64,000 nt of DNA from Eledone cirrhosa. Taxonomy: Eukaryota. The translations under genes and the position numbers were made by a program. The stretch spans positions 20,894,001 through 20,958,000 of the forward strand of contig OZ024752.1 in NCBI GenBank assembly GCA_964016885.1. The letters are read 5' to 3'. Positions within the stretch are counted from its first letter, which is position 1; each line of letters begins with the position of its first letter. The notes under the pieces were generated by a model, which saw only the letters and a list, made by a program, of their open reading frames with translations, had not been told where the DNA came from and ran no database searches. Positions 3,001 through 47,021 of the stretch are shown here, piece by piece.

Positions 3001-4038
3001 ATCACCTAGTATTTTATGTAACACCTAGTATTGTATGTTACACCTAGTATTGTATGTTACACCTAGGATTTTATGTAACAGCAAGTATTGCATGCAACAC
3101 CTAGTCTTGTATGTTTCACCTTGTATTGTATGTTACAACTAGTATTGTATGTAAAACCTAGCATTATATGTTACACCTAGTATTGTATGTTACACCTGGT
3201 ACTTTATGTAACACCTAGTATTGTATGAGACGACTAGAGTAGTATGTGACACCTAGTACTGTATGTTACACCTAGTATTTTATATTACACCTAGTAGTGT
3301 ATGTTACACCTAGTATTGTATGTAACCTAGTGTTGAATGTTACACCCAGTATTTTATGTTACACCTAGTATTGTATGTAACACCTAGTGTTGTATATTAC
3401 ACGTAGTATTGTCCGTTACACCTATATTGTCTGTAACTCCTAGTATTGTATGTTACACCTAGTACTGTATTTTATACATAGTATTTTCTGTTAAACCTAG
3501 TGTTGTATGTAACACCTAGAGTTGTATGCTACACCTAGTATTTGTATGATACACCCAGTATGGTCTGGTACACCTAGTATTGTATGTAACATGTAGTAAT
3601 TTATGTGAAACCTAGTATTGTATGTTAACACCTATTGTACGTTACACCGAGTATTCTATGTTAAACCTAGTATTGTATGTTCTAAGTAGCATTGTTTGTT
3701 ACACCTAGCATTGTATGTTACAAGCAGTATTGTTTGTTACACCTAGTATTGTATGTTACGCCTAGTATTCTATGTTACACCTAGTACTCTATGTTACACC
3801 TAGTACTGTATGTTTCACCTAGTATTGTATTTAACACCTAGTATTTTATGTTACACGTAGTATAGTATGTTACACCAAGTATTGTATGTTACACATAGTA
3901 TTGTATGTTACACCTAGTATTGTATGTTACCCCTAGTATTATATGTTACAACTATTATTGTATGTTACATCTAGTATTGTATGTCACACCTACCATCGTA
4001 TGTAACACCGCGTATTGTATGTAACATCTAGTATTGTA

Positions 4039-5021
<983 letters not shown>

Positions 5022-8000
5022 TGATACACCTGTTATTGAATGTTACACACGCATATTATTGTATGTAACATCCAGTATTGTATATTAGAGCTAGTATTGT
5101 ATGTTACACCTCTTATTGTATGTAACGCCTAGTATTGTATGTTACACCTAGTATTCTATGTTACACCTAGTACTGTAAGTTACACATAATATTGTATGTA
5201 ACACCTAATATTGTATGTTACACCAAGTATTGTATGTAACATCTTGTATTGTTTTTTACACATAGTATTATATGTAACACCTAATATTGTATGTTACACC
5301 TAGAATTGTAGGTTACAGCATTTGTTGTATGTTAAACCTAGTATTGAATGTAACACCTAATGTTGTATGTTACACCCAGTATTGTATGTTACACCTAGTA
5401 TTGTATGTTACACCTAGTGTTGTATATTACACCTAGTATTGTATGTAACACCTCGTAGTGTATGTGACACCTACTATTGTCTGTAACACCTAGTGTTGTA
5501 TGTTATACCTAGTGTATGTTACACCTAGAATTGTATGTTGCACCGAGTATTGTATGTTACACCTAGTATTGTATGTAATAACTAATATTGTATGTTACAC
5601 CTAGTGTTGTATGTTACACCTAGTATTGTATGTAACACCTAGTGATGTATGTTACATCTAGTATTTTATGTTACACGTAGTACTGTATGTTACACCTACT
5701 AATGTATGTAACACCTAATGTTATATGCTACACCTCGTATTTTATGTTACACCTAGTATTGTATGTTATCATTAGTATCGTATGTAACACCTAGGGTTGT
5801 ATGTTACACACAGTATTGCATGTAACACCTAGTATTGTACGTTACAACTAGTATTGTAGGTTACACCTAGTATTATGTTACACTTACTATTGCATGTAAC
5901 ACCTAGCATTGTATGTTGCACCTAGTATTGAATTTAACACTTAATATAGTATGTTACACCTAGTGTTGTATCTTACACCTAGTATTGTATATAACACCTA
6001 GTGTTGTATGTAACACCTAGTATTGTATGTTTACATAGTATTTTATGTTACACCTAGTATTGTATGTTACACCTACTATTGTATGTTCCACTTAGTATTG
6101 TATGTTACACCTAGTATTGTATGTTACACCTAGTATTGTATTATACACCTAGTATTATATGTAACACCTAGTATTTTATGTTGCACCTTGTATTGTATGT
6201 TACACTTAGTACTATGTGTTACACCTAGTATCGTATTTTACACCTAGTATTATATGTTACACCTAGTATTATATGTTACACCTAGTATTATATGTTACAC
6301 CTAGTATTGTATGTTACACCTGGTACTTTATGTAACACCTAGTACTGTATGTTAAACCTAGTATTGTATGTTACCCCTAGTATTGTATGTTATACATAGT
6401 ATTGTATGTAACACCGAGTACTGAATGTTACACCTAGTATTCTATGTTACACGTAGTACTGTATATTACACATAGTATTGTATGTTGCACCCAGTATTGT
6501 ATGTTACACCTAGTGTTGTATGTAACAACTAGTATTGTATGTAGCACCTAGTATTGTATGTAAAACCTAGTGTTGTATATTACACCTATTATTGTATGTT
6601 ACACCTAGTGTTGTCTGTTACACCTAGTATTGTATGTAACACCTTGTATTGTATGTAACACCTAGTAATGTATGTAACATCTAGTATTGTATGTAACACC
6701 TAGTGGTGTATGTTACACCTAGTGTTTTATGTTACACCTACTATTATATGTTACACCTAGTGTTGTCTGTTACACCTGGTATTGTATGTAACACCTTGTA
6801 TTGTATGTAACACCTAGTAACGTATGTAACATCTAGTATTGTATGTAACACCTAGTGTTGTATGTTACACCTAGTGTTTTATGTTACACCTACTATTATA
6901 TGTTGCACCTATTGTTGTATGTAACACCTAATATTGTATGTTACACCTAGTGTTGTATATAACACCTAGTATTGTATGTTACACCTAGTATTGTATGTTA
7001 AAGCTAGTATTGTATGTTACACCTAGAAGTGTGTGTTACACCTAGTATTTTATTTTACACCTAGTATCGTATTTTACACCTTGTATTATATGTTAATCCT
7101 AGTATTGTATGTTACACTTACTATTGTATGTTACACCTAGTATTGTATATTAGACATAGTATTGTATGTTACATCTAGTATTGTGTGTTACACCTAGTAT
7201 TGTATGTAACACCTAGTATTGTATGTAACACCTAGTATTGTATGTTACACCTAGTGTTGTGTGTTACACCTACTTTGTATTTTACACATAGTATTATATG
7301 TTACACCTAGTATTGTATGTTACACTTACTATTGTATGTTACACCTAGTTTTGTATGTAACACATAGTATTGTATATTAGACCTAGTATTGTATGTTACA
7401 CCTAGTATTATGTTACACTTACTATTTCATGTAACAAAAAGTATTGTATGTTGCACCTATTATATTATGTAACACCTAGTATTGTATGTAACACCTAGTA
7501 TTGTATGTTACACCTAGTATTGTATGGTACACTTAGTATTGTATGTAACACCTAGTGTTGTATATTACACCTAGTACTGTATGTAACACCTTGTATTGCA
7601 TATAACACGTAGTATTGTACGTTACACCTAGTATTGTATGTTACAGCTAGTGTTATATGTTACATCTATTATTGTATGTTACACCTCTTAATGTATGTAA
7701 CACTTAGTATTGTATGTTACACCTAGTATTGTATGCTGCACCTAGTATTATCTGTAAAACCTAGTGCTGTATGTTACACCTAGTATTGCATGTTACACAT
7801 AATATTGTATGTTACACCTAGTATTATGTTACACTTACTATTGCATGTAACAAATAGTATTGTATGTTGCACCTATTATTGTATGTAACACTTAGTATGT
7901 TATGTTACACCTTTTATTGTATTTAACACCCAGTTTTGTATGTTACACCTAGTATTGTATGTTACACCTAGTGTTGTATATTACACCTAGTACTGTGTGT

Positions 8001-11000
8001 AACGCCTTGTATTGAATGTAACACGTAGTATTGTACGTTACACCTAGTATTGTATGTTACACCTAGTATTGTATGTTACATCTATTATTGTATGTTACAC
8101 CTCTTATTGTATGTAACACCTAGTATTCTATGTTACACCTAGTATTGTATGTTGCACATAGTATTATCTGTAACACCTAGTGTTGTATGTTACACCTAGT
8201 ATTGCATGTTACACATAATATTGTATGTTACACCTAGTATTATGTTACACTTACTATTGCATGTAGCAAATAGTATTGTATGTTGCACCTATTATTGTAT
8301 ATAACACTTAGTATGTTATGTTACACCTAATATTGTATGTAACACCTAGTATTGTATGTAACACCTAGTATTGTATGTTACACCTAGTATTGTACGTTAC
8401 ACCTAGTGTTGTATGTAGCATCTAGTATTGGATGTAACACCTAGTGTTGTATGTTTCACCTAGTATTGAATGTTACACCTAGTATTGTATGTTACACCTA
8501 GTATTGTATGTTACACCTAGTGTTGTATGTAACAACTAGTATTGTATGTAAAACCTAGTATTGTATGTAAAACCTAGTGTTGTATATTACACCTATTATT
8601 GTATGTTACACCTAGTGTTGTCTGTTACACCTAGTATTGTATGTAACACCTTGTATTGTATGTAACACCTAGTAATGTATGTAACATCTAGTATTGTATG
8701 TAACACCTAGTATTGTATGTAACAGCTAGTATTGTATGTTACACCTAGTATTGTACGTTATACCTAGTGTTGTATGTAGCATCTAGTATTGGATGTAACA
8801 CCTAGTGTTGTATGTTTCACCTAGTATTGAATGTTACACCTAGTATTGTATGTTACACCTAGTATTGTATGTTACACCTAGTGTTGTATGTAACAACTAG
8901 TATTGTATGTAACACCTAGTATTGTATGTAAAACCTAGTGTTGTATATTACACCTATTATTGTATGTTACACCTAGTGTTGTCTGTTACACCTAGTATTG
9001 TATGTAACACCTTGTATTGTATGTAACACCTAATATTGTATGTTACACCTAGTGTTGTATATAACACCTAGTATTGTATGTTACACCTAGTATTGTATGT
9101 TAAAGCTAGAATTGTATGTTACACCTAGAAGTGTGTGTTACACCTAGTATTTTATTTTACACCTAGTATTGTATTTTACACCTTGTATTATATGTTAAAC
9201 CTAGTATTGTATGTTACACTTACTATTGTATGTTACACCTAGTATTGTATATTAGACATAGTATTGTATGTTACATCTAGTATTGTAGGTTACACCTAGT
9301 GTTGTGTGTTACACCTACTTTGTATTTTACACATAGTATTATATGTTACACCTAGTATTGTATGTTACACTTACTATTGTATGTTACACCTAGTTTTGTA
9401 TGTAACACATAGTATTGTATATTAGACCTAGTATTGTATGTTACACCTAGTATTATGTTACACTTACTATTTCATGTAACAAAAAGTATTGTATGTTGCA
9501 CCTATTATATTATGTAACACCTAGTATTGTATGTAACACCTAGTATTGTATGTAACACCTAGTATTGTATGCTACACCTAGTATTGTATGTTACACCTAG
9601 TGTTGTATATTACACCTAGTACTGTATGTAACACCTTGTATTGCATATAACACGTAGTATTGTACGTTACACCTAGTATTGTATGTTACAGCTAGTGTTA
9701 TATGTTACATCTATTATTGTATGTTACACCTCTTAATGTATGTAACACTTAGTATTGTATGTTACACCTTGTATTGTATGCTGCACCTAGTATTATCTGT
9801 AACACCTAGTGCTGTATGTTACACCTAGTATTGCATGTTACACATAATATTGTATGTTACACCTAGTATTATGTTACACTTACTATTGCATGTAACAAAT
9901 AATATTGTATGTTGCACCTATTATTGTATGTAACACTTAGTATTATATGTTACACCTTTTATTGTATGTAACACCCAGTTTTGTATGTTACACCTAGTAT
10001 TGTATGTTACACCTAGTGTTGTATATTACACCTAGTACTGTGTGTAACGCCTTGTATTGCATGTAACACGTAGTATTGTACGTTACACCTAGTATTGTAT
10101 GTTACACCTAGTATTGTATGTTACATCTATTATTGTATGTTACACCTAGTATTGTATGTTGCTCATAGTATTATCTGTAACACCTAGTGTTGTATGTTAC
10201 ACCTAGTATTGCATGTTACACATAATATTGTATGTTACATCTAGTATTATGTTACACTTACTATTGCATGTAACAAATAGTATTGTATGTTGCACCTATT
10301 ATTGTATGTAACACTTAGTATGTTATGTAACACCTAATATTGTATGTAACACCTAGTATTGTATGTAACACCTAGTATTGTATGTTACACCTAGTATTGT
10401 ATGTTACACCTAGTGTTGTATGTAGCATCTAGTATTGGATGTAACACCTAGTGTTGTATGTTTCACCTAGTATTGAATGTTACACCTAGTATTGTATGTT
10501 ACACCTGGTACTTTAAGTAACACCTAGTATTGTATGTTACACCTAGTATTGTATGTTACACCTAGTGTTGTATGTTACAGCTAGTATTGTATGTAATACC
10601 TAGTACTCTATGTAACACCTCGTATTTTATGTAACACCTAGTATCGTCTGTAACACCTAGTGTTCTATGTTACATCTTGTATTGTATATTGCACCTTGTA
10701 TTGTATGTTACACCTCTTATTGTATGTAACACCTAGTATTGTCTGTAACACCTAGTGTTGTATGTTACACCTTGTCTTGTATGTTAAACCTAGTAATATA
10801 TGTTGCACCTAGTATTGTATGTAACACATAGTATTGTATGTTACACTTAGTATTGTATGTAACACCTAGTAGCATATAACACCAAGTGTTATATACTACA
10901 CCTAGTATTGTATGTAACACCTAATGTTGCATGTTACACATAGTATTTCATGTAACACCTAATATTGTACGTTACACCTAGTATTGTATGTTGCACCTTG

Positions 11001-13715
11001 TATTGTATGTAACACTTAATATTGTAAGTTACACCTAGTATTGTATGTTACACCTAGTGTTGTAGGTTTTACCTAGTATTGTTTGGTATACCTAGTATTG
11101 TATGTAACACCTAGTACTGAATGTTACACCCTGTATTCTATGTTACACCTAGTACTGTATGTTACACATAGTATTGTATGTTACACCTAATGTTGTATGC
11201 AACACCTAGTGTGGTATTTTACACCTAGTATTGTATGTACCACATAGTGTTGTATGTTATACCCAGTATTGTATGTTACACCTAGTGTTGTATGTTACAC
11301 CTAGTAATGTATGTTACACCTAGTGTTGTATGAAACACCCATTATTGTATGTTACACCTAGTATTGTATGTACCATCTAGTGTTGTATGGTACACACAGT
11401 ATTGTATGTTACACCTGGTACTGTATGTAACAACTAGTATTGTATATAACACCTAGCATTGTATGTTACACCTAGTATTTTATGTAACACCTAGTGTTGA
11501 ATGTAACTACTAGTACTTTATGTTACAACTAGTAAATGTATGTTACACCTAGTATTGTATGTTACATCTAGTATTATGTTACACTTACTATTTCATGTAA
11601 CAACTATTATTGTAAGTTGCGCCTAGTATTGTATGTATCAAGTACCATTGTATGTTACACCTAGTGTTGTATGTTACACCTAGTGTTTTATGTTATACCT
11701 ACTATTTTATGTTAAACCTCATATTGTATGTACCACCTAGTGTTGTATGTTACACCCAATATTGTATGCTACACCTAGTATTGTATGTAACACCTAGTGT
11801 TGTATGTTACACGTAGTACTGTATGTTACAACTAGTGTTGTATGAAACACCCATTATTGTATGTTACACCTAGTATTGTATGTACCACCTTGTGTTGTAT
11901 GTTACACCCAGTATTGTATGTTATTCCTAGTATTGTATGTTACACCTAGTGTTGTATGTTACAGCTAGTATTTTATGTAAGACCTAGTACTCTATGTAAC
12001 ACCTAGTATTGTATGTAACAGCTAGTATCGTCTGTAACACCTAGTGTTGTATGTTTCACCTAGGTTTGTATATTGCACCTAGTATTGTATTTTACACCTA
12101 GTATTGTATGTAACACCTAATATTGTATGTTACACCTAGTGTTGTATGTAACACCTAGTATTTTATGTTACACTTGCTATTGTATGTAACACCTAGTATT
12201 GTATGTAACACCTAGTATTATCAATAACACCTAGTATTGTATGTTACACCTAGTATTGTATGGTACACCTAGTATTGTATGGTACACTTAGTATTGTATG
12301 TTACACCTAGTATTATATGTTACACCTAGCATTATATGTTATACCTAGTATTGTATGTTACACTTACTATTGTATGTAACACCTAGTATTTTATGTTGCA
12401 CCTTGTATTGTATGTAACACTTAATATTGTATGTTACACCTAGTGTTGTATGTTACACCTATAGTTGTATGTTACACCTAGTATTGTATGTAACACCTAG
12501 TGTTGTATGTTACACCCAGTTTTGTATGTTACACCTAGTATTGTATGTAACACCTAGTATTGTATGTAATATCTATTGTTGTATGTTACAGCGAGTATTG
12601 TATGTTACACGTAGAACTGTATGTTACACCCATTATTTTATGTTACACCTAGTATTTTATGTTACACCTAGTATTTTATTTGACACCTAGGGTTGTATGT
12701 GACAGCTAGTATTGCATGCAATATTGTATGGAACATCTAGGGTTGTATGTTACACCTAGTATTGTTTATTACGCCCAATATTGTATGTTACACCTCGTAT
12801 TGTATGTAACACCTAGTATTTTATGTTAAACCTAGTATTTTATGTTACACCTAGTATTTTATTTGACACATAGGGTTGTATGTGACAGCTAGTATTGCAT
12901 GCAACACCTAGTGTTGTATGTTTCACCTCGTATTGTATGTTACACCTAGTATTGTATGTAAAACCTAGTATTGTATGTTACACCTAGTACTGTATGTTAT
13001 ACCTGGTACTTTATGTAACACCTATTATTGTATGTTAGCCCTAGTATTGTATGTTATACCTAGTATTGTATGTAACACCTAGTACTGAATGTTACACCTA
13101 TTATTCTATGTTACACCGAATATTCTATGTTACACCTAGCATTGTATGTAACACCTAGTATCGTCTGTAACACCTAGTGTTGTATGTTATACCTAGTGTC
13201 GTATGTTCCACCTAGTATTGTATATTGCACTTAGTATTGTAAGTAACACGTAATATTGTATGTTACACCTAGTGTTGTATGTAACACCTAGTATTTTATG
13301 TTACACTTGCTATTGTATGTAACACCTAGTATTGTATGTAACACTTAATATTGTATGTTACACCTAGTATTGTATGTTACACCTAGTATTATCAGTAACA
13401 CCTAGTATTGTATGCTACACCTAGTATTGTATCGTACACCTAGTATTGTATCGTACACCTAGTATTGTATGTAACAGGTAGTGTTGTATGTTACACGTAG
13501 TATGTATGTAACACCTAGTATTGTATGTAACACCTAGCATTGTATGTTACACCTAGTATTGTATGTTAAACCTAGTATTGTATGTTACACCTAGTATTGT
13601 ATGTTACACCTTGTATTATATGTTACACCTAGTATTGTATGTTACACATAGTATTGTATGTCACACCTACCATTGTATGTAACACCGAGTATTGTATGTA
13701 ACATCTAGTATTCTA

Positions 13716-14345
13716 CTAGCAGAATGGCCAGGCGTTGCTAAGGATTTTCTCTAGAGTTCTTATATATTTGATATATATTTATCCTTATCGAGCCTCGTGA
13801 AATAAATACGTTTGTCTATATTTTGTTATTGTATATGCAAAGATATCTGTACACGAATATATAATTATATATATATATTTTTAAATAACAGATTAAAGTT
13901 TAAGAAAAGAATCGCTGCTTTAACCCTTAACGGGACAATCTAAAACTAAAAAAAATCAATTTGTGAACGCAGAAGTAAATATTTCGAAAAACGTTACACA
14001 CTATATATATATACGCACACACTATATATATACATATACACGCACACAGATAGTCTCATAATGTCGTTATGCAGACAGGTAGGCATAAGGTCAGATATTA
14101 TAAGGGCGAAACTTTATATCTATGTATCTATCTAAAAAGAAACACTCATAATTATAGAGAGAGATCGCTAACTCGCCTAATGCGGTCCCTAGGTCATTGA
14201 AAATATAAAATATCTTTTGCTCACAACACTCACAAGACCATATGTATTACATTTGTAAAGTTTGAAAACAATAGGTTGGGTGGTTCTCGAGTTTTAGGGA
14301 ATCAGACAGAGAGAAAACAGACATTCTCTGTTTTGGATATATAGA
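13716..14345 (-). mobile_element. Non-autonomous Helitron-like element, copy B (630 bp)
   Basis: Minus strand begins TCTATATA and ends CTAG after a GC-rich subterminal segment; inserted between A and T with no TSD; removing it restores a satellite monomer (TATTGTA|TGATACACC type); short GACA repeats near the 5' end. Confidence 0.8.
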
Positions 14346-17300
14346 TGATACACCTGCTATTGAATGTTACACACACATAGTATTTTATGTTACACCTAGT
14401 ATTGTATGTTACACCTAGTATTCTCTGTAACACCTAGTATTGTATATTAGACCTAGTATTGTATGTTACACCTAGTACTACATGTTACACATAGTATTGT
14501 ATGTAACACCTAATATTGTCTGTTACACCTAGTGTTGTATGTTACACCTAGTATTGTATGTTACACCTAGTATTGTCTGTAACACCTAGTATTGTATGTA
14601 ACACATATTGTTGTATGTTACACCTAGTACTGTATGTAACACCTAGTATTGTATGTAACACCTAGCATTGTATGTTACACCTAGTATGTATGTAAAACCT
14701 AGTGTTGTCTCTTACACCTAGTGTTGTATGTTATACCTAGTATTGTATGTAACACCTAGTACTGCATGTAACAACTAGTATTGTATGTAACACCTAGTAT
14801 TGTCTGTAAAACCTATTGTTGTATGTTACACGTAGTGTTGTATGTTAAACCTAGTATATATGTTGCACCTACTATTGTATGTAACATCTTGTATTGTATT
14901 TTACACCTAGTATTGTATGTAACACCTAATATTGTATGTTACACCTAGTGTTGTATGTAACACCTAGTACTCTATGTTACACTTAGTATTGTATGTTAAA
15001 CCTAGTATTGTATGTAACACCTAGTATTGTATGTTACACCTAGTGTTGTATATTACACCTAGTATTGTATGTAACACCTAGTACTGTATGTAAAACCTTG
15101 TATTGTATGTAACACCTATTATTGTCTGTAACACCTACTTTTGTATGTTACACCTAGTGTTGTATGTTACACCTAGTATTGTGTGTTACACCGAGTATTT
15201 TATTTTACACCTAGTATTATATGTTACACCTAGTATTGTATGTTACACTTACTATTGTATGTTACACCTAGTAGTGTATGTATTATCTAGTATTGTATGT
15301 TACAGTTAGTATTGTATGTTACACCTAGGGTTGTATGTAACCGATAGTATTGCATGCAACACCTAGTGTTGTATGTTTCACCTCGTATTGTATGTTACAC
15401 CTAGTATTGTATGTTACACCTAGTATTGTATGTTACACCTAGTATTGTATGTAAAATCTAGCATTGCATTTTACACCTAGTATTGTATGTTACACCTGGT
15501 ACTTTATGTAACACCTTGTATTGTATGTTACCCCTAGTATTGTTTGTTATACCTAGTATTGTATGTAACACCTAGTACTGAATGTTACACCTAGTATTCT
15601 ATGTTACACCTAGAATTGTATGTTACACCTAATGTTGTATGTTATACCTAGTGTTGTATGTTACACCTGGTATTGTATATTACACCCAGTATTGTATGTT
15701 ACACCTCGTATTGTATGTAACACCTAGTATTTTATGTTAAATCTAGTAATGTATGATAATATCTGTTGTATGTTACACCGAGTATTCTATGTTACACCTA
15801 GCATTGTATGTTACACTTACTATTGTATGTTGCACCTAGTATTGTATGTAACACCTAATATTGTATGTAAAACCCAGTATTGTATATTAGAAATAGTATG
15901 GTATGTAACACCTAGTATTGTATGCTACACCTAGTATTGTATGTTACACCTAGTATTGTATGGTACACCTAGTATTGTATGTTACACCTAGTGTTGTATG
16001 TTACAGCTAGTATTTTATGTAAGACCTAGTACTATATGTAACACCTAGTATTGTATGTAACACCTAGTATCGTCTGTAACACCTAGTGTTGTATGTTGCA
16101 CCTAGTATTGTATTTTACACCTAGTATTATATGTTAAACCTAGTATTGTATGTGACACCTTGTACTGTATGTTACACATAGTATTGTTTGTAACACATAA
16201 TATATTATGTTACACCAGGTATTGTATGTTACACCTAATACTGTATGTAACACCTAGTATTTTATGTACCACGTAGTATTGTAGGTAACACCTAGTATTG
16301 TATGTTGCACCTAGTATTGTATTTTACACCTAGTTTTATATGTTACACCTAGTACTGTACGTTACACTTACTATTGTATGTAACACCTAGTATTGTATGT
16401 TACACCTACTGTTGTATGTAACACTTAGTATTGTATGTTACACCTAGTATTGTATGTTACACCTAGTATTATATGTTAGACCTAGTATTTTATGTTAAAC
16501 ATAGTATTGTATGTTACACTTACTATTGTATGTTACACATAGTATCGTATGTAACACTTAGTATTTTATGTGACACCCAGTATTGTATATTAGATCTAGT
16601 ATTGTATGTTACATCTATTATTGTATGTTACACCTCTTATTGTATGTAACAGCTATTATTGTATGTTACACCTAGTATTCTATGTTACACCTAATACTGT
16701 ATGTTACACATAGTATTGTATGGAACATATAATATTATATGTTACACCTAGTATTGTATGTTGCACCTAGTATTATCTGTAACACCTAGTGTTGTATGTT
16801 ACACCTAATATTGTATGTTACACATAATATTGTATGTAACACGTAGTATTGTACGTTACACCTAGTATTTTATGTTACACCTAGTATTATGTTACACTTA
16901 CTATTGCATGTAACAAATAGTATTGTATGTTGCACCTATTATTGTATGTAACACTTAGTATGTTATGTTGCACCTAGTATTGTATGTTACACCTACTATT
17001 TACGTTACACCTAGTGTTGTATGTAACACATAGTATTCGATGTAACCCCTAGTGTTGTATGTTTCATCTAGTATTGTATGTTACACCTAGTATTGTATGT
17101 TACACCTGGTACTTTATGTAACACCTAGGATTGTATGTTACACCTAGTGTTGTAGGTTTCACCTAGTATTGTATGTAACACCTAGTGTTGTATGTTACAC
17201 CTAGTACTGTATATAACAACTAGTATTGTATGTAACACCTAGTATTGTATGTAACACCTAGTATTATGTGTTACACCTAGTACTGTATGTTACACCTAGT

Positions 17301-17588
17301 ATTGTATGTTACACCTAGTATTGTATGTTACATCTAGCATTATGTTACACTTACTATTGCATGTAACAACTATTATTGTATGTTCAACCTAGTATCGTAT
17401 GTTACCCCTAGTATTATATATACACCTATTATTGTATGTTACAGCTAGTATTGTATGTTACAGCTACTATTGTATGTTACACATAGTGTTGTATTTTACA
17501 CCAAGCATTGTATGTTACACATAGTATTGTATGTCACACCTACCATTGTATGTAACACCGAGTATTGTATGTAACATCTAGAATTGTA

Positions 17589-18218
17589 CTAGCAGAATGG
17601 CCCGGCGTTGCTAAGGATTTGCTCTAGAGTTCTTATATATTTGGTATATATTTATCCTTATCGAGCCTCCTGAAATAAATACGTTAGTTTACATTTTGTT
17701 ATTGTATATGCAAAGATATCTGTACACAAATATATAATTATATATATATATTTAAATAACAGTGTAAAGTTTAAGCAAAGAATCGCTGCTTTCACCCTTA
17801 ACGGGACATTCTAAAACTAAAAAAAATCAATCTGTGAACGCAGAAGTAAATGTTTCGAAAAACCTTACGCACTTCATATATATACACACACACTATGTAT
17901 ATACATATACACACACACAGATAGTCTCATAATGTCGTAATGGAGACAGGTAGGCATACGGTCAGATATTATAAGGGCCAAACTTTATATCTATGTATCT
18001 ATCTAAAAAGAAACACTAATAATTATAGAGAGAGATCGCTAACTCGCCTAATGCGGTCCCTAGGGCATTGAAAATATGAAATATCTTTTGCTCAGAACAC
18101 TCACAGGGCCATATGTTTTACATTTGTAAAGTTTGAAAACAATCGGTTGGGTGGCTCGAGTTTTAGACAATCAGACAGACAGAGAGAAAACACACATGCT
18201 CTGTTTTAGATATATAGA
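17589..18218 (-). mobile_element. Non-autonomous Helitron-like element, copy C (630 bp)
   Basis: Collinear with copy B; same TC...CTAG termini and A|T site. Confidence 0.8.
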
Positions 18219-19094
18219 TGATACACCTGTTATTGAATGTTACACACACATAGTATTGTATGTTACACCTAGTATTGTGTGTTACACCTAGTATTGTATG
18301 TAACACGTAGTATTGTATGTAACACCTAGTATTGTATGTTACACTTAATATTGTATGTTACACCGAGTATTTTCTGTTACACGTAGTATTGTTTGTTACA
18401 CCTTAGTATTGTATGTTACACCTAGTATTTTATGTTACACCTCGTACTGTATGTTACACCTAGTATAATATGTAACACCTAGTATTGTATAGTACAACTG
18501 GTATTGTATGTTACCCCTAGTATTATATGTTCCACATATTATTGTATGTTACAGCTAGTATTGTATGCTACACCTACTATTGTATGTTACACATAGTCTT
18601 GTATGATACACCTAGCATTGTATGTTAAACCTAGTATTGTATGTCACAACTACCATTGAATGTAACACCGAGTATTGTATGTAACATATAGTATTGTACT
18701 AGCAGACTGGCCCGGCGTTGCTACGCATTTGCTCTAGAGCTCTTATAAATTGATATATATTTATCCTTATCGAGCCTCGTGAAATAAATACGTTTGTTTA
18801 TATTTTGTTATTGTATATGCAAAAATATCTGTACACGAATGTATCCTAAATGGACGGTAGTCCGTTTAGTAATATTGTTGTAGTCGTGTTTTCGTTGGCA
18901 ATCGTCTGTTTACGACAGTACAACGCGGCTCTACTTTATTTAACTGAGATAAAACTTATATGAGCATGAACAGTAGATCATTACGCATCTTTTGGCTTAA
19001 AAATCTAGAAATTTGGTCCAGCGGGAAAAAGTTTATAACGAAAGTTTGCTGATAAATCTTGTGTTCAAGTGAGTGAGTAGTAAGCGTGACGCTA

Positions 19095-19220
19095 GGGGAG
19101 GTAATCCAGAAATGACGAATTTTTTTCGGCGGAACTCTTGTGATTGTGATTACGTTAGTCAAATGTAGTCAAATCGCCGAATCCCCTCCTCCTAATTGAC
19201 TACATCATTTCTGAACGGCC
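19095..19220. mobile_element. Small PIF/Harbinger-like MITE
   Basis: Imperfect TIRs GGGGAGGTAATCCAGAAATGACG / CATCATTTCTGAACGGCC flanked by CTA on both sides. Confidence 0.5.
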
Positions 19221-19793
19221 CTACTTGCGTCAGTGTGAAACATTACTTCACTTTTCACTGCTAAAATGCTTTTTAAATACTTTAATTTAAATACTTAAAT
19301 TTATGTTTATTATCAAAGCTATTTTTTGTACCAATCTATCAATAGTTTGCGAAAATATAGGTAAACATGTGAGTTAAATTTTTTTTAATCGCATCGATCG
19401 CTTTGTCGCACCGACTGTGACACTGTCTGACTGTCTGTCTGACTGACACCTTTGTCGGACCGACACCTTTGTTCAAGCGGACAACTTTGTGTCACTGACA
19501 CCTTTGTTCGTGCCGGTATCTCTGCAAAACACCGATGACAACAACCAGACCAAAATTTCACTTCATTCTTCATTCTTCTTCAAGACCGATCGCCGACCGA
19601 TCGTATCGGTTGCTCTTCATATACCAGATATTCAACAGATAGTTTGCACTTCTAGTATTATTAACAGTCGTGCGATTTTTTTGTACCGATAGGTGCGAAT
19701 AGTGTACAATATTTTCTGAGATTTGCATCCACTAATTTCGCTTAATTAAAAATGATGTTTTGCAGCTTTTTGATCGGCTTATTCATTTTTTCC

Positions 19794-20547
19794 ATGGCAC
19801 GGAAATGGAGTATTTCCATTTCAAATCAAAACTTTTCACTAAAATCGGGCAATTGGACTGATCAAATTCACATTCATGCCAGTTTTTACAAATCCATAAT
19901 TAGAAATGTGGCGAAATCGAATGACCAGAAGGTATAAAAATATTAATTCAAATGTATTTACTTATCATACCAACAAAAATACTTAGATATTTTGTATACC
20001 TGGGGCCCGTCAGGGCCAGGTAATGTTAATCGCCAACATTGTTATCTGTTGTCCTTTTGTGAAAGTATTGGTGGTTCATGTCGGCTCTAATGATCTGAAT
20101 CCTCGTCGCGCCGTTGGCACTACAAAGCTGTGCAAATTAATACAATAATTTTTGCCCAAGTATTTTTTATTAATCATTTATTTGTAAATTAAGGACAAAG
20201 TGCCCATTCAAGGCACAAAACCGGAAAAATAGGGGAAGAGTCTCTTTGCAAGGCTACAGAAAATAGTGGAAAAGCACCACTGTACACCCATTTTCTACAG
20301 TGGTGTCATTCCACGTCCATAAAGTGTAATTGAAAATAAAAATGACTTGGGCAAAAGAAATTCTCGTTTGGAAAAGTTTAATTACTGCATGAAAGAAATG
20401 ATTCAAAAATTGAACTTGCCCAATCTTCACAACATTGAAAATTGGTCAAAATTTGACAAATCTGACTTCAAACCAGATATGATTCATTTGAACAATGTTG
20501 GAAATCTTAAATTGACACAAATTTTTGCCAATGTTTTTGCCACCTGA
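19794..20547 (+). pseudogene. Three-exon SGNH/GDSL-type hydrolase (transposon-esterase-like) pseudogene; exons ~19794-19931, 19987-20127, 20194-20547
   Basis: Manual translation gives KSIIRNV (block I), CIPGA, HVGSND (block III), FYSGVIPR and PDMIHLNNVG (block V); phase-0 introns of 55 nt (GT-AG) and 66 nt (donor reads CT); in-frame stops at 20230 and 20320; AATAAA at 20585. Confidence 0.75.
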
Positions 20548-20587
20548 TCCTTGTTCTATGGCTGACTGACTAATTTTGTGACTTAAT

Positions 20588-21350
20588 AAAATGTCATCAT
20601 ACTAGTAATGCACAATGGTCATTTTTAAATTTAAATTTTATTAAATAGTTGTTGCTTGCATTGCCTTAAAATAGTAAGAAGAATGTACACATACTTTTTA
20701 AAAATACATCATTATCAGTCAAATCAGTCAAATGTCACTAAAAGCCAGGTGGTCGATAACAACTTCTATAAGATTAGTTACATGCTCACACATTGGATCA
20801 CCTCTCATCAATGGCATTGGGTGTCTGAGATAATCGTGGAGATAACTGATGAAGTCACAAATGAAGTGATGGTCTTCCAGTGTGAACAACTCCCTATATC
20901 CATTGATATATGTGATGGCTTCCGATTCATAGGTGCATTTTATGAGGAATTCCATGCATCCGATTTTCAGTGATTCAATGTGCATTTTATCAGAGATGAT
21001 AAGGTATTTGACCACGTTTTGTAAATTGGAGAGAATCACTGCAGTCAAAGTCATTTCTTTGCATGGGTTTTTGTCCATTCTAAAAAGTTAAAATGATAAA
21101 GTATTACTACTATATAACTTACATCTATTGTTGTAACACCATTGAAATGCACAAGTTTCACCAATTCACTATTATGCACTAATCATCTCAAATGCATTCA
21201 TGATTTACTAGCTTTGTCATTAAGCCAGTTGCCTCAACTAGATTGCAATTATACTCAAAAGAACTTTAAAATGTCAATCACTTGTCAGTAATTCACTATG
21301 ATCATTTAATTATTAGATAGTTGTTACTTGCATTGCCTTAAAATATAGTA
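20588..21350 (+). repeat. Imperfect ~85-bp direct repeats (20588-20678 and ~21268-21350) flanking the BACK-like exon
   Basis: Core ATAGTTGTTRCTTGCATTGCCTTAAAATA at 20645 and 21317, with upstream AGTAATKCACWATGRTCATTT in both. Confidence 0.8.
20728..21079 (-). CDS. Exon or ORF encoding a BACK-like (BTB C-terminal, SPOP-type) helical domain
   Basis: NLQNVVKYLIISDKMHIESLKIGCMEFL resembles the pattern NvxxlLilAdxyxxxxLKxxcxxFi; preceded on the minus strand by TTTTAACTTTTTAG acceptor. Confidence 0.55.
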
Positions 21351-21351
21351 G

Positions 21352-22323
21352 ACCAGATAGAAAAATGCGTACAGCAAAAAAAAAGTAATAAAAGAATAGG
21401 ACAAGAAACTAAGATAAAACTTTAAAGAATTGGACAAGAAATAAAAAATTTTACAATAATATTAGTGGCAAAACTTTTTTATTCGTTTCCTGTGCTATGC
21501 TCCAGTATCTTCTTGATTAGTGCATAATAATTGTCATGCTCTCATTGTGCGTTGCCCCTGAGCGGTTGGTTCTGGTTGGGGTTGGTTGGCTGAGCAGCTC
21601 TGCTCCGTCAGAATGACCATTGCAAAAAGAATTGGCCGATGCAGCTGCAGGTCTCCTCCAAGAATGCACTTCTGGTCCCGCAACACCAGACGGAGATGGA
21701 GAAGACGACCGGGACAAGATGTCGACTCTGACCACCGACTACGGCACCTGCCTCAACCACCGATCCTTCCTCCCTCTGTCCCGTCATCCCTCCTGTCCTA
21801 CTGCTCCCCCTTCCTGTACCAGAAAGCTGTGGCACGCATTCATCTGGACTGCCGGACTTGAACTCAAGGACAAGATGCAAGAAGAAGATGGACGGGTTGG
21901 TCAAGATCAAGGATGAGCGGGACGACAAGACCGTCCACTGCTGCTCAAGATCTGTGTTCATGGGCCCATGGGTTCATTCACATTATGCATGACACATGAG
22001 GCGTGTCGCCGAATGATGAAATAGGGTATGGTTATGGCCCAATTGGTGTTCAAACCAGGATCAAATGATCCCCCCGGTCTGACGACGACCTCTGAATGTG
22101 GAAGCCAGAGCCTATGAATGTGGAACTCGATTTTTTACCAATAAAAATTTTGCCACTAATATTATTGTAAAATTTTTTATTTCTTGTCCAATTCTTTAAA
22201 GTTTTATCTTAGTTTCTTGTCCTATTCTTTTAAAGTTTTATTTTAGTTTCTTGTCCTATATTTTTAAAGGTTTATATTCCAACAATATTACTTTTTTTTG
22301 CTGTACGCATTTTTCTATCTGGT
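21352..22323. repeat. Long inverted repeats (21352-21483 / 22140-22323) enclosing a GC-rich degraded ORF-like segment
   Basis: ACCAGATAGAAAAATGCGTACAGC...GTGGCAAAA matches the reverse complement of the right arm; left arm lacks ~50 bp present in the right. Confidence 0.9.
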
Positions 22324-25300
22324 AATTATATATATATATTAAAATAACAGATTAAAGTTTAATCAAAAATTCGCTGCTTTCACCCTTAACGGGATCTTCT
22401 GAAACCCCAAAAAATCAATCTGTGAACGCAGTAAATATTTCGAAAACGTGACACACTATATATATATATATATACACACACTATATATACATATACACAC
22501 ACACACACAGATAGTCTCATAATGTCGTTATGCAGACAGCCAGGCATACACACAGATATTATAAGGGCCAAACTTTATATCTATGTATCTATACGAAAAG
22601 AAAGACTAACAATTATAGATACAGATCGCTAACTCGCCTAATGCGGTCCCTAGGGCATTGAAAATATGAAATATCTTTTGCTCAGCACAATCACAGGACC
22701 ATATGTATTACATTTGTAAAGTTTGAAAACAATCTGTTGGGTGGTTCTCAAGTTTTAGGCAGTCAGACAGACAGACAGAAAACAGACATTCTCTATTTTA
22801 GATATATAGATGATACACCTGTTATTGAATATTACACACACATAGTATTGTATGTAAAACCCAGTATTGTTTATTAGACCTAGTATTTTATGTTACACCT
22901 AGTATTGTATGTTACCCCTCTTATTGTATGTAACAGCTAGTACTATATGTTACACCTAGTATTGTATGTTACACTTACTAGTGTATGTTACACCTAGTAT
23001 TGTATGTAACACCTAGTATTGTATGTAACACCTAGTATTGTGTGTTATACCTAGTATTTTATTTTACACCTAGTATTATATGTTACAGCTAGTATTGTAT
23101 ATTAGACCTAGTATTGTATGTTACACCTAGTATTGTATTTTACATCTATTATTGTGTTACACCTCTTATTGTATGTAACACCTAGTATTGTATGTTACAC
23201 CTAGTACTGTATGTTACACATAGTATTGTATGTAACACATAATATTGTATGTTAACCTAGTGTTGTATGTTACACCTAGTATTGTATGTTACACCTAGTA
23301 TTGTCTGTAACACCTAGTGTTGTATGTTACACCTAGTATTGTATGTTACATGTAGTATTGTATGTTACACCTAGTATTGTATGTTACACCTAGTATTGTA
23401 TGTAACACATGGTATTGTATGTAACACCTACTATTGTATGTTACATGTAGTATTGTATGTTACACCTAGTATCGTATGTTACACCTAGTATTTTATGTAA
23501 CATCTAGTAATGTATGTAACACAAAGTGTTGTATGTTACACCTAGTATTGTATATTACACCTAGTGTTTTATGTTACAACTGGTATTGTATGTTACACCT
23601 AGTATTGTATGTAACACCTAGTATTGTATATTACCCCTACTATTGGATGTTAGATGTAGTATTGTATGTTACACCTAGTGTAGTATGTTACACCTAGTGT
23701 AGTATGTTACACCTAGTATTTTATGTAACACATACTATTGTTTGTTACACATAGTATTGTATGTTACATCTAGTATTGTATGTTACACCTATTGTATGTA
23801 ACAACTAATATTTTATGTAACACCTAGTATTGTATGTAACATCTAGTATTGTATGTTACACATAGTATTGTATATAACACCTAGTATTGTAATTTACACC
23901 TACTATTTTATCTAACACCTAGTATTGTATGTAACACCTACTATTGTATGTTACATGTAGTATTGTATGTTACACCTAGTAATGTATGTTAAACCTAGTA
24001 TTGTATGTTACACATAGTGTTGTATGTTACACCGCGTATCGTATGTAACACCTAGTATTGTTTCTTACACCTAGTGTTTTATGTTACATCTAGTATTGTA
24101 TGTTACAGCTAGTATTGTATTTTACATGTAGTATTGCATGTTACACCTAGTAATGTATGTTACAACTGGTACTTTATGTAACACCTAGTATTGTATGTAA
24201 CACCTAATATCGTATGTTACACCTAGTATTGTATGTAACACCTAGTATTGTATGTAACACCTACTATTGTATGTAAACAACTTGTATTATATGTAACACA
24301 TAGTAATGTATGTTACACCTGGTATTTATGTTAAACCTTGTATTATATTTTACACCAAGTATTGTATGTTACACAGTATTGTATGTTACGCATACTATTG
24401 TATGTAACACCTACAATTGTATGTAACACCTAGTATTGTATGTGACACCTAGTATTATATGTTATACCTAGTGTTGTATGTGACACCTAGAATTGCATGT
24501 TACACCTAGTATGGAAAGTAACACTTAGTACTGAATGTTACACCTAGTATTGTATGTAACACCTAGTATTGTATGTTACACCATTATTGTATGTATCACG
24601 TAGTATTGTATGTTACATCTAGTATTGTATGTTACACCATTATTGTATGTAACATCTAGAATTGTATGTAACACGTAGTATTGTATGTTACACCTTGTAT
24701 TGTATGTTTCACTTAGTAGTGTATGTTACACCTAGTATTGTATGTTACACCTACTATAGTATGTTACATGTAGCATTGTTTGTTACACCTAGTATTGTAT
24801 GGTACACATAGCATTGTATGTAAGACCTAGTATTGTATGTTACATGTAGTATTGTATGTTACACCTAGTAATGTACGTAACACCTAGTATCGTATGTTAC
24901 ACTTACTATTGTATGTTACACCTAGTATTGTATGTTATACCTAGTATTGTATGTAAAACCTAATATTGGTTGTTACATTCAGTATTGTATGGAACACCTA
25001 GTATTGTATGTTATATCTAGTATTGTATGTAACACCTAGTATTGTGTGTTACACCTAGTATTATATGTTACACATAGTATTGTAGATTGCAACTACTATT
25101 GTACGTAACACCTAGTATTGTATATTGCACCTAGTATTGTATGTAACACTTAGTATTGTATGTTACACATAGTACTCTATGTTACACCTAGTATTCTATG
25201 TAACACTTAGTATGGTATGTGATACCGCGTATTGTATGTTGCACCTAGCATTGCATGTAACACCTAGTGTTGTATGTTACACTTAGTATTGATTATACCC

Positions 25301-28279
25301 CTAGTATTGTATCTTACACCTAGTGTTGTATGTTAAACCTAGTATTGTGTAGTACACCTAGTATTGTATGTTTCACCTGGTATTGTATGTTACACCTAGT
25401 ATTGTATGTAACACCTAGTATTGTATGTTACACATAGTACTGTATGTAATATCTAGTATTGTATGTTACACCATTATTGTATGTAACACCTAGTATTGTA
25501 TGATACATGTAGTATTGTATGTTACACCTAGTATTGTATATTACACTTAGTATTGTATGTTACACCTAGTATTTTCTGTAACATCCAGTATTTTATGAAA
25601 CACCTAGTATTGTATGTTACACCTAGTATTGTATGTTACAGCTGGTATTATATTTGGCACCTAGTATTGTATGTAACACCTATTATTTTATGGTACACTT
25701 AGTATTGTATGTTAAACCTACTATTGTATGTTACATGTAGTATTGTTTGTTTCACCCAGTATTGTATGTTACACCTAGTATTGTATGTAGCACCTAGTAT
25801 TGTATGTTACAGCTACTTTTGAATGTTAAACCTTGTATTCTAGGTTACACTTAGTATTGTAAGTTACACCTATTATTGTATGTTACACCTAGTATTGTAT
25901 GTTAGACCTAGTGTTGTATGTTATACCTAGTATTGCAGGTAACACCTAGTTTTGTATGTAACACCTAGTATTGTATGTTACACCTAGTATTGTATGTTAC
26001 ACATACTACTGTATGTAAAGCTAGTATTATATGTAACGGCTAATATTGAATGTTACACCTCGTGTTGTATGTTATACCTAGTCCTGCATGTAACACCTAG
26101 TGTTGTATGTTACTCCTAGTATTGTATGTTCAACCTACTATTGTATGATACATGTAGTATTGTATGTTACATGTAGTAACATACAATAATGTATGTTATA
26201 CCTAGTATTGTATATTACACCTAGTATTGTATGTTACACCTAGTATTGTATGTTACACTTACTATTGTATGTTACACCTAGAATTATATGTTACACCTAG
26301 TATTCCATGTTAAACCTAGTATTGTATGTTACACCTAGTATTGTATGTAACACCTAGTATTTATGTAACACCTAGTATTGTATGTTACACCTAGTATTGT
26401 ATGTAATATCTATTATTTTATGTTACACCTATTATTAACATCTAGTGCTTTATATTACACCTCGTATTGTATGTAACAGCTAGTATTATATGTAACATCT
26501 ATTACTGTACGTTACACCTAATGTTGTATGTAACACTTAGTATTGTATGTATCACCTATTATTGTATGTTACACCTAGTATTGTATTATACACCTAGTAT
26601 TGTATGTTGCACCTAGAGTTCTATGTAACACCTACTATTGTATGTTACACCTAGTATTGTTTGTAACACCTAGCATTGTATGTTACACCTAGTATTGTTT
26701 GTAAAACCTACTATTGTATGTTACATCTAGTATTGTATGTTACACCTAGTATTCTATGTTACACGTAGTGTTGTATGTTACACCTATTATTGTATGTTAC
26801 TCCTAGTGTTGTATGTAACACCTACTATTGTATGTTACACCTAGTGTTTTATGTTACACCTAATGTTGTATGTTACACCTAGTATTGAATGTTACACCTA
26901 GTATTGTATGTTACACCTAGTGTTGTATGTTACACCTATTATTGTATGTTACACCTAGTGTTGTATGTTACACCTTGTATTTTTTGTAACACCTAGTATT
27001 GTATGTTACACCTAGTATTGTGTGTTACACCAAGTATTGTATCTTACACCTAGTATTGTATGTTACACCTAGTGTGGTATGTTACACCTAGCATTGTATG
27101 TTACATCTAGTATTTTTTGTAACACTTAGCATTGTATGTTACATCTAGTATTGTATGTTACACCTAGTATTGTATGTTACACCTAGTGTTGTATGTTACA
27201 CCTAGTATTGTATGTTACACCTAGTATTGATTGTTACACCTTGTATTGTATGTTTCACCTAGTATTGTATGTAACACCTAGTGTTGTATGTTACACCTAA
27301 TGTTGTGTTACACCTAGTATTGAATGTTACACCTAGTATTGTATGTTACACCTAGTATTGTATGTAACACCTAGTATTGTATGTAACACCTAATGTTGTA
27401 TGTTACACCTAGTGTTGTATGTTACACCTAGTGTTGTATGTTACACCTAGTATTGAATGTTACACCTAGTATTGTATGTTACACCTAGTATTGTATGTTA
27501 CACCTAGTATTGAATGTTACACCTAGTCTTGTATGTTACACCTAGAGTTGTACGTTACACCTTGTATTGTATGTAATAGCTAGTGTTGTATGTTACACCT
27601 AATGATGTATGTTACACCTAGTATTGAATGTTACACCTAGCATTGTATGTAACACCTAGCATTGTATGTAACACCTAGTATTGTATATTACACCTAGTGT
27701 TGTATGTTACACCTACTATTGTATGTTACACCTTGTATCGTATGTAACACCTAGTGTTGTATGTTACACCTAGTGTTGTATGTTACACCTAGTGTTGTAT
27801 GTTACACCTAGCATTATATGTTACACCTTGTATTGTATGTAACACCTACTATTGTATGTTACACCTTGTATTGTATGTTACACCTTGTATTGAGGAATTC
27901 ATCATTTTAACAGCTTTTGTTTTTTGTGCTGCTGGTGTTCCACTTAATTTACCAGACCAGGGTCTTGTGGGAGAGCTGCTTTAGTCAATTGCCACTGAAC
28001 TATTAAGTAGGTTGCACTGGATTACATGGTACCAGTAGCAGTCAGATGCCTGACCTGATATTCATAGCAAGGAGTTTAATTGTTGCATTGATTAAGTAAC
28101 ATTTACTACAGTACAGTGAATTGCAAGTTTAGAATTTGCAATTTCAGATTCCTTAGCAGTATATTATTATTTAGGTGTATAAATTTTATTTCGATGTATA
28201 AATGGTATTATTTAGGTGTATACATGTTGTTATTTAGGTGTATAAATGTTGTTATTTAGGTGTATAAATGTTATTTAGG

Positions 28280-45265: not shown

Positions 45266-46115
45266 GTATATATGTATATGTATATATATGTATATATATG
45301 TATATATATGTATATGTATATTTGTATGTATATATAAATATGTATATATATATGCATATGTGTATATAAATATGTATATATATATGCATATGTGTATATA
45401 TATATGTATATATATATATTCATATGTGTATATATATATATATGTCTATATATATATATGTATGTATGTATATATATATATATATATATAAGTATGTGTA
45501 CGTACATACATATATGTATACAGACGTACAGTAGTATGTATATATATATACATACATGCACACATATATATATATGTATGTATGGATTCACCGAACATTT
45601 ATTATAATGCTCGGTTTGTTTGTAAACAAACATCCCGAATTAAGCCGTACAGTGTCTAGCAACCATCGTTGCAGGAAGGTACACGTTGCTGAAGATAGCT
45701 AATAAGCTTGATACTAGTACAGCGTTCATTTGTCAGTGTTGAACAAATGAGCAACGATGGTTGCCAGACACTGTACGGCTTAATTCGGTATGTTTGTTTA
45801 CAAACACACCGAGCATTATAATAAATGTTCAGTGAATCTCTACGTACATATATATATGTGTGCATGTATGTATATATATATATACATACTACTGTACGTC
45901 TGTATACATATATGTATGTACATATACATACTTATATTTAAGTAACAGCCGTACTAAGAGTGAGAAATCAAATATCGTTTCATTTTTTTCGTTTATCGTT
46001 TTCGGTGCTCCCGGCCGATTAACCCATTTGATATGCAAATTAGGCTGCTCAGCCGTTAATATGGAAAAGGAAAGTATATACTTTCAGACGTTCAATCATC
46101 TGGCAGGAAGGTATA

Positions 46116-46156
46116 CGTTGCTGACGATAGCTAATAATCTTGAAACTAGTACAGCG
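46116..46156 (+). ncRNA. Minimal type I hammerhead (array copy 2, stem II mismatch)
   Basis: CGTTG-CTGACGA-TAGCTAATAATCTT-GAAA-CTAG-TA-CAGCG. Confidence 0.75.
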
Positions 46157-46552
46157 TTCCTTTGTCAGTGTTGAACAAATGAGCAACGATGGTTGCCAGA
46201 CACTGTACGGCTTAATTCGGGATGTTTGATTACAAACAAACCGAGCATTATAATAAATGTTCGGTGAATCCATACGTACATATATATATGTGTGCATGTT
46301 TGTATATATATATATATATATACATAACACTGTACGTCTGTATACATATATGTATGTACGTATACATACTTATATTTAAGTAACAGCCGTACTAAGAGTG
46401 AGAAATGAAATTTCGTTTCATTTTTTCCGTTTATCGTTTTCGGTACCCCGGCCGATTAACTCACTCGATATGCAAATTAGGCTGCTCAGCCGTTAATATG
46501 CATAAGGAAAGTATATACTTTCAGACGTTCAATCATCTGGCAGGAAGGTATA

Positions 46553-46593
46553 CGTTGCTGACGATAGCTAATAAGCTTGAAACTAGTATAGCG
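46553..46593 (+). ncRNA. Minimal type I hammerhead (array copy 3)
   Basis: CGTTG-CTGACGA-TAGCTAATAAGCTT-GAAA-CTAG-TA-TAGCG. Confidence 0.85.
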
Positions 46594-46980: not shown

Positions 46981-47021
46981 CGTTGCTGATGATAGCTAAT
47001 AAGCTTGAAACTAGTACAGCG
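46981..47021 (+). ncRNA. Minimal type I hammerhead (array copy 4)
   Basis: CGTTG-CTGATGA-TAGCTAATAAGCTT-GAAA-CTAG-TA-CAGCG. Confidence 0.88.

What the first reader, a model, noticed from the sequence alone, without database searches (positions are those of the whole stretch)
18845..22323. Unclassified 3.5-kb gene-carrying element nested in a Helitron inside a satellite
Seen: three sister Helitron copies, two of which (B, C) retain the uninterrupted site and define the boundaries, with at most 1 bp duplicated. The insert has a 10-bp-stem hairpin at its left end and a 13-bp motif AGTAATATTGTTG about 25-30 bp inside both ends in inverted orientation. Cargo is a spliced SGNH-esterase gene, a BACK-like exon and a Cys/His-containing ORF remnant; no transposase is visible. 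Established: short subterminal inverted repeats plus a terminal stem-loop and no TSD are typical of Helentron/DINE-1-type rolling-circle elements. Inference: a deletion derivative of a large multi-gene mobile element or virus-like element with its own compact intron-containing genes.
Basis: partly seen in the sequence, partly recalled or inferred. Interest (0 to 1): 0.8.

Follow-up and report, generated by a model that had tools for sequence, protein, structure and literature searches.

The report
Helitron derivative with mirrored end copy
This 3.5-kb insert is one of several hundred internally deleted copies of a 12.6-kb rolling-circle transposon (Helitron group HLE2), and it and its relatives carry an inverted copy of their own right end about 1 kb inside, which likely folds back on that end during copying.

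Summary
The insert is real and classifiable. It spans 18844-22322 (TCC…CTGG), sits between A and T without a target duplication, and belongs to a family of roughly 400-500 copies about 98% alike. A 12.6-kb copy with the same two ends encodes an HLE2-clade Rep-helicase (DUF6570, no endonuclease, C-terminal UCH deubiquitinase) and an intron-containing NADAR-SGNH gene. The window copy is a ~9-kb deletion derivative that fuses the Rep-helicase leader to the SGNH gene minus the G-D of its GDS motif. It occurs in three families in this genome and in one family from another assembly, matches each family's own end, and is kept by 45 of 47 two-ended copies. My literature searches did not find it described. 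A role in transposition (fold-back) is inferred, about 40%. Verdict: new variant of a known kind.

The parts
18844..22322 (+). Non-autonomous HLE2 derivative, 5'-TC…CTGG-3', inserted between A(18843) and T(22323), no target duplication
18846..18869 (+). 5' terminal hairpin, 10-bp stem, GGTA loop (one mismatch in this copy; compensatory changes in related families)
18868..18880 (+). Left 13-bp subterminal inverted repeat
19752..19894 (+). N-terminal hydrophobic leader of the parent's Rep-helicase ORF; a ~9-kb deletion junction lies at about 19894
19895..19931 (+). Remainder of the SGNH block-I exon (SIIRNV; parent reads VGDSIIRNV), fused in frame to the leader
19987..20136 (+). SGNH exon with PGA and VGSND motifs; splice donor GT changed to TT at 20137 in this copy
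20194..20547 (+). Last SGNH exon (DMIHLN); two stops in this copy, open in many sister copies
20731..21087 (-). 119-codon open frame, weakly BACK-like, unassigned
21353..21486 (-). Inner inverted copy of the right terminus (about 215 bp in sister copies; partly deleted here)
21487..22136 (.). Interior of the ~1-kb terminal module; unrelated between families; holds the unassigned Cys/His frame
22137..22322 (+). Right terminus with 34-bp tandem repeats (22180-22275), right subterminal repeat (22280-22292) and CTGG end; no strong hairpin
18699..18843 (-). Host canonical-type Helitron copy A, 3' part (CTAG end)
22323..22810 (-). Host Helitron copy A, 5' part (TC start)
17589..18218 (-). Host Helitron copy B, empty site
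13716..14345 (-). Host Helitron copy C, empty site
1..27892 (.). 19-bp satellite array that holds the host Helitrons

Best explanation
The insert is an internally deleted, non-autonomous copy of a 12.6-kb HLE2-clade Helitron, likely moved in trans by the parent's Rep-helicase through rolling-circle copying, and it landed at an A^T site in an older Helitron inside a satellite. Shown: the ends, the target, the parent, its domains, the ~9-kb deletion and the inner inverted copy of the right end. Inferred from Helitron biochemistry (PMC4778049): Rep nicks one end, the helicase peels off one strand, and the copy is joined between A and T. My committed but weaker step (about 40%): on the peeled single strand the last ~200 nt pair with the inner inverted copy as a panhandle. 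That structure would stand in for the missing 3' hairpin as stop signal or second-strand primer, and would keep the two arms identical.
For: Same ends on a Rep-helicase element (G000:C28:42936072-42948699), with DUF6570, Helitron_like_N, PIF1 and UCH hits in a sister long copy. The tree places it in the DUF6570 clade, apart from EN-bearing and HLE1-type Reps. A precedes the left end in 285 exact matches against 2 with another base (patterns of 38 and 34 nt). T follows the right end in 47 of 47. A nested sister-family copy gives an empty site without duplication. Inner copy: 390 inner against 404 outer exact junctions; present in 45 of 47 two-ended copies and 28 of 30 copies picked by the right end; carries family-specific bases in three families; present in L227, L228 and L230 from another assembly. 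One junction lacking the inner copy is single in the genome.
Against: Every long copy that I translated has frameshifts or stops in the Rep-helicase, so no active partner is shown. No head-to-tail junction was found. For the panhandle step: no experiment; the module interior was flipped in only one copy (44 of 44 standard); 11 of 16 outside relatives with 4 kb or more downstream of the helicase show no near-perfect repeat of this kind; many deletion classes share one left breakpoint and may not be independent; copies truncated at either end exist.
Confidence: 0.9

Rival explanations
1. Same element, but the inner inverted end is a neutral relic of an old self-insertion in reverse orientation, kept identical to the terminus by intramolecular gene conversion.
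For: The inner copy ends CTGG followed by T like an ordinary insertion junction. Reverse self-insertion is a published model for FoHeli (PMC5148889 section 16). A few two-ended copies lack it (L063, L083, L242).
Against: Long inverted repeats appear deletion-prone here (truncations cluster at its edge), yet it persists at about 1 kb in families with 85% and 66% DNA identity and in a family with about 35% protein identity, while the interior has been replaced.
Confidence: 0.35
2. Same element, but the inner inverted end acts at the RNA level: read-through transcripts form a ~200-bp hairpin that yields small RNAs, or it promotes the minus-strand cargo frame.
For: The arms are long and about 98% identical within copies, and a minus-strand frame lies 270 bp from the inner copy.
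Against: This does not explain why the repeat reproduces the exact transposon end, including the subterminal repeat and CTRR.
Confidence: 0.2
3. The last kilobase is an independent MITE or foldback element nested at the end of the insert.
For: It has long terminal inverted repeats and is inverted in one long copy. One long copy begins with a short inverted right end.
Against: No stand-alone module in 30 copies picked by the right end nor in 18 hand-picked exceptions; no target duplication; its arm carries the repeat that pairs with the element's left end; the flank of the inner arm is homologous across three families.
Confidence: 0.03
4. Strict Helentron/DINE-1 derivative, or a virus-like element.
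For: Subterminal repeats, a terminal stem-loop, no target duplication and a short GTCT-rich tract.
Against: A^T target, no endonuclease, capsid or integrase family among 9 parent ORFs scanned, and a Rep outside the EN-bearing group.
Confidence: 0.03

Closest known systems
HLE2 subgroups c/d with UCH (HELIANO, PMC11417382)
   Same: DUF6570-marked Rep-helicase, UCH domain, no endonuclease, short terminal inverted repeats.
   Different: HLE2 are said to insert generally at T^T with the stem-loop after the right repeat. Here: A^T, TC…CTRR, 5' stem-loop, inner inverted end. UCH is in the Rep-helicase frame. NADAR and SGNH are not named in that paper's text or supplement text.
HLE2-reverse (FoHeli3-5 of Fusarium; PMC5148889, PMC11417382)
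   Same: 5' hairpin upstream of the left repeat, no 3' hairpin, 9-13 kb, multiple 5' termini in some copies.
   Different: FoHeli3-5 start TGCCT and end CTCCTGT, with no target preference established; fungal; no inner inverted end in the passages that I read.
proto-Helentron of Phytophthora (PMC4067079 section 11; PMC11417382 section 24)
   Same: HLE2 Rep without endonuclease, A^T target, CTAG-type 3' end, 5' stem-loop, no target duplication.
   Different: 5'-TT rather than TC; stem-loop 3.6 kb from the left repeat; SET and TIR cargo; reported only in Phytophthora.
Helitron2 (Bao and Jurka 2013, PMC3627910)
   Same: 5' hairpin near the end with compensatory changes; 3' repeat 20-30 bp from the end; no endonuclease.
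   Different: Helitron2 has a 3' hairpin and a TTTT^T/C target; its 5' repeat forms the hairpin, whereas here it follows it.
texim SGNH genes in fish Helitrons (PMC4021074)
   Same: Intron-containing SGNH hydrolase gene carried by a Helitron.
   Different: Here it is fused to NADAR and lies downstream of the Rep-helicase; kinship to Texim was not tested.

Membership tests
HLE2 (Helitron-like element group 2) | Autonomous partner with HUH Rep and PIF1 helicase | tested here: met
   (all copies seen are broken by stops or frameshifts)
HLE2 (Helitron-like element group 2) | DUF6570 marker and Rep phylogeny apart from HLE1 | tested here: met
   E=1.9e-14; quick tree, SH-aLRT only; HLE1 label of the outgroup rests on a recalled motif
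HLE2 (Helitron-like element group 2) | Short subterminal inverted repeats; no target duplication | tested here: met
HLE2 (Helitron-like element group 2) | T^T target (typical, not defining: the A^T proto-Helentron is placed in HLE2) | tested here: not met
   PMC11417382 section 24
Helentron / DINE-1 (HINE) | AP endonuclease fused to the Rep-helicase | tested here: not met
   UCH in its place
Helentron / DINE-1 (HINE) | TT target and 3' stem-loop after the right repeat | tested here: not met
Helitron2 (Bao and Jurka) | Hairpins at both ends; TTTT^ target | tested here: not met
   the last 70 nt fold at only -2.7 kcal/mol; A^T target
HLE2-reverse | 5' stem-loop upstream of the left repeat, none at the 3' end | tested here: met
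HLE2-reverse | Rep groups with FoHeli3-5 | not tested
   no FoHeli sequence was in the tree
proto-Helentron | A^T target, CTAG-type 3' end, no endonuclease | tested here: met
   CTGG here, CTAG in two related families
proto-Helentron | 5'-TT start | tested here: not met
   TC in all families examined
proto-Helentron | Rep groups with the Phytophthora element | not tested
   sequence not in the tree
HLE1 (canonical Helitron) | 5'-TC, CTRR-3', A^T target | tested here: met
HLE1 (canonical Helitron) | 3' hairpin and HLE1-clade Rep | tested here: not met
HLE2 subgroup c/d | UCH domain | tested here: met
HLE2 subgroup c/d | Placement among HELIANO's c/d sequences | not tested
   those sequences were not fetched

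The most novel reading that the evidence does not exclude
A widespread HLE2 lineage with fused deubiquitinases uses a distinct end architecture: A^TC, a GGTA-loop hairpin and a short repeat at the 5' end, CTRR^T at the 3' end, and an obligatory ~200-bp inverted copy of the 3' end 1 kb inside. The copy folds the displaced strand into a panhandle that terminates or self-primes rolling-circle transposition, a mechanism not described for Helitrons; the lineage also carries a NADAR-SGNH fusion gene.
Probability: 0.3. Interest if true: 0.75.

Novelty: new variant of a known kind. Interest (0 to 1): 0.5.

Why it matters
HLE2 transposition has been inferred from sequence and from joined-end PCR (PMC5148889); I found no reconstituted assay. 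This family gives defined ends, natural deletion series down to 1.4 kb and a conserved structural element to test. It shows the proto-Helentron combination (HLE2 enzyme, A^T target, CTRR end) outside Phytophthora, where a 404-genome survey reported none (PMC11417382 section 24), in what is likely an animal genome (inferred). So target site does not separate HLE1 from HLE2, and tools that expect T^T or a 3' hairpin would mis-call such families, or call their last kilobase a MITE.

Tried and rejected
Head-to-tail junctions in the genome: none. Flip-flop replication as in parvoviruses: rejected as the main mode; the hairpin loop is flipped in 6 matches against 285 and the module in one copy. Independent MITE at the right end: rejected. 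Apparent target duplications occur only in (TA)n tracts. Which end is the origin: undecided; both 5'- and 3'-truncated copies occur. Selection on SGNH exon 3 among 12 copies: 6 silent and 13 replacement variants, uninformative. Homologue searches for SGNH exon 3 and a NADAR exon among longer proteins: no hit (weak evidence). BACK-like frame: unassigned; the full HMMER search could not be run. Rfam: nothing. No RNA holder listed. Long repeats in L183 and L184 could not be tied to element ends. One search was aimed at wrong coordinates and is not used. Earlier scan notes: nothing.

Full report
Observation. The window begins with a 19-bp satellite that holds copies of a ~630-bp Helitron on the minus strand: C at 13716, B at 17589, A split at 18699-18843 and 22323-22810, and a decayed fourth at about 4039. 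All four share the same variant satellite flank, so they are likely duplicates of one insertion and B and C are true empty sites. Against them the insert is 18844-22322, TCC…CTGG, between A and T, with nothing duplicated.

It is a transposon family. A search of the 3.0-Gb own genome gave 830 candidates, 38 scored, many covering the whole insert. Twelve full copies are 97.7-98.8% alike and have unrelated flanks. Exact matches: 285 for the left end with a preceding A (38 nt), 2 with another base (34 nt), 404 for the outer right end. Of 69 left ends examined, most of them chosen by a pattern that included the A, 47 had a right end within the fetched stretch, all followed by T; lengths ran from 0.6 to 6.5 kb (14 further rows were the hairpin's other arm and were dropped). 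Many sit in (TA)n tracts. Contigs of organism A and organism B span the internal junction at about 19894, so it is no assembly error.

The parent. A left end 10.5 kb from an SGNH exon led to L013-L014, and a search with its middle to more long copies. G000:C28:42936072-42948699 has both ends and is 12.6 kb. Pfam on 9 plus-strand ORFs of L013 found DUF6570 (E=1.9e-14), Helitron_like_N, PIF1, UvrD_C_2 and UCH, and no endonuclease. Helicase and UCH share one frame in two copies. Every long copy that I translated is broken by stops or frameshifts. Downstream, three successive exons match successive thirds of the NADAR profile (positions 4-67, 81-116, 118-162; E=0.002, 0.02, 0.13, each below cut-off), and the third runs in frame into the SGNH block-I motif VGDSIIRNV. 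The window copy maps to parent positions 1-1165 and 10136 to the end. The deletion removes the Rep-helicase and NADAR and fuses the Rep leader in frame to the SGNH serine, without the preceding G-D. Loss of activity is inferred; in the window the gene also has a lost donor and two stops.

Placement. A homologue search gave 55 long proteins, nearly all with DUF6570 and 13 with UCH. In a quick tree of the Rep region (62 of 67 rows had the anchor motif; SH-aLRT only; the careful search did not finish) the three local families form one clade (100) inside a 38-row group (87) that holds all UCH-bearing proteins, apart from the EN and tegument-domain group and from six presumed HLE1 Reps of this genome. 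HELIANO reports DUF6570 as an HLE2 marker and UCH as enriched in subgroups c and d (PMC11417382 sections 22-23).

Ends across families. A sister family (85-87% DNA identity in Rep-helicase) starts A^TC with a compensatory change in the stem and ends CTAG^T; one copy nested in a parent gives an empty site without duplication. A third family (about 66%) has a different 10-bp stem with the same GGTA loop, A before the start in 17 of 17 recognised among 20 loci, and CTAG^T. In another assembly, L227-L230 (about 35% protein identity; OTU in place of UCH in L227) start A^TC with further stems around GGTA, followed by a 15-bp repeat. The record title names a bacterium; host DNA is my inference. This mix of HLE2 enzyme, A^T target, CTRR end and 5' stem-loop resembles proto-Helentron and HLE2-reverse.

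The feature that was missed. An inverted copy of the right end lies about 1.06 kb inside (median), about 215 bp in most copies and partly deleted in the window. Inner and outer junction counts are 390 and 404. It is present in 45 of 47 two-ended copies and 28 of 30 copies picked by the right end (the samples overlap). Of 17 copies mapped on the parent, 16 keep it, across about nine different internal junctions, the nearest 140 bp upstream. In each family the inner arm carries that family's own terminal bases; the third family's arm stops 2 bp short of the end. The sequence before the arm is homologous across the three families, while the enclosed interiors are unrelated. In L227, L228 and L230 a 173-229-bp repeat spans 1.07-1.2 kb, and the inner arm holds or adjoins the 15-bp terminal repeat; only L227 appears to keep a full outer end. 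Of 16 outside loci with 4 kb or more downstream of the helicase, 5 have a near-perfect repeat of this size, and 2 of these could not be tied to element ends.

Mechanism. Shown: anatomy, target, parent and derivation. From established work on Helraiser (PMC4778049, passages): nicking at 5'-TC, a 3' hairpin as stop signal, circles, A^T insertion. Inferred: the same chemistry in trans here. This family has no strong 3' hairpin, so I propose that the inner copy pairs with the end on the displaced strand and acts as stop signal or primer (about 40%). Rivals are a neutral relic of reverse self-insertion kept by gene conversion (35%; model in PMC5148889 section 16) and an RNA-level role (20%). Against frequent fold-back replication: the module is flipped in one copy, the hairpin loop in 6 matches, and no head-to-tail junction was found.

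Literature seen. Passages and named sections: PMC4067079 (section 11), PMC11417382 (sections 22-24; supplement searched and part 2 of 111 read; figures not held), PMC5148889 (section 16). Passages only: PMC3627910, PMC4021074, PMC13085455, PMC12477816, PMC12273014, PMC4778049. SGNH cargo in Helitrons is known (PMC4021074); NADAR is reported in retrotransposons (PMC12477816). Searches (listings) did not show an inner inverted end or a NADAR-bearing Helitron; Repbase, Dfam and subscription papers were not searchable, so absence from print is not established.

Verdict. Observation largely right, classification corrected: a non-autonomous HLE2 Helitron derivative (confidence 0.9). New variant of a known kind. 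Interest 0.5, resting on the conserved inner inverted end and the A^T/CTRR termini on an HLE2 enzyme.

Noticed in passing
L013:1207-1460; L044:4951-7122: The parent Rep-helicase has a hydrophobic leader followed by LLIIGCVELNPGP, close to the 2A/StopGo motif D(V/I)ExNPGP (motif from the listing); it could split off the leader that the window copy keeps.
   Followed up: partly
L040, L115-L119: Six copies have the hairpin loop inverted (GGTA to TACC), which suggests occasional template switching in the stem.
   Followed up: partly
L033 (G000:C28:42936072-42937120): The 1-kb terminal module is inverted in this long copy.
   Followed up: partly
G000:C12:22461600 (L035): A long copy begins with a 30-bp inverted right end in place of the left end, preceded by A.
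   Followed up: no
L122, L124, L125, L049, L042: Sister and third families often carry two left ends 0.6-1.2 kb apart, as reported for FoHeli.
   Followed up: no
L045:4047-4661: The sister family's module interior holds a 205-codon Cys/His-rich frame that looks PHD-like by eye; no Pfam hit.
   Followed up: partly
window 20587-20673 and 21267-21345: A 75%-identical direct repeat brackets the BACK-like frame; the sister family lacks the SGNH and BACK-like region.
   Followed up: no
G000:C20, C27, C19, C16: Many near-identical Helitron Rep hits are spaced about 100-170 kb apart on these contigs, which suggests large tandem repeats that contain a Helitron.
   Followed up: no
L227-L231; P0001: Records titled as bacterial genomes hold multi-copy HLE2 Rep-helicases; likely mis-binned eukaryotic DNA.
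   Followed up: no
window 45671-47899: A 428-bp tandem array of 5 copies, 93% matches.
   Followed up: no
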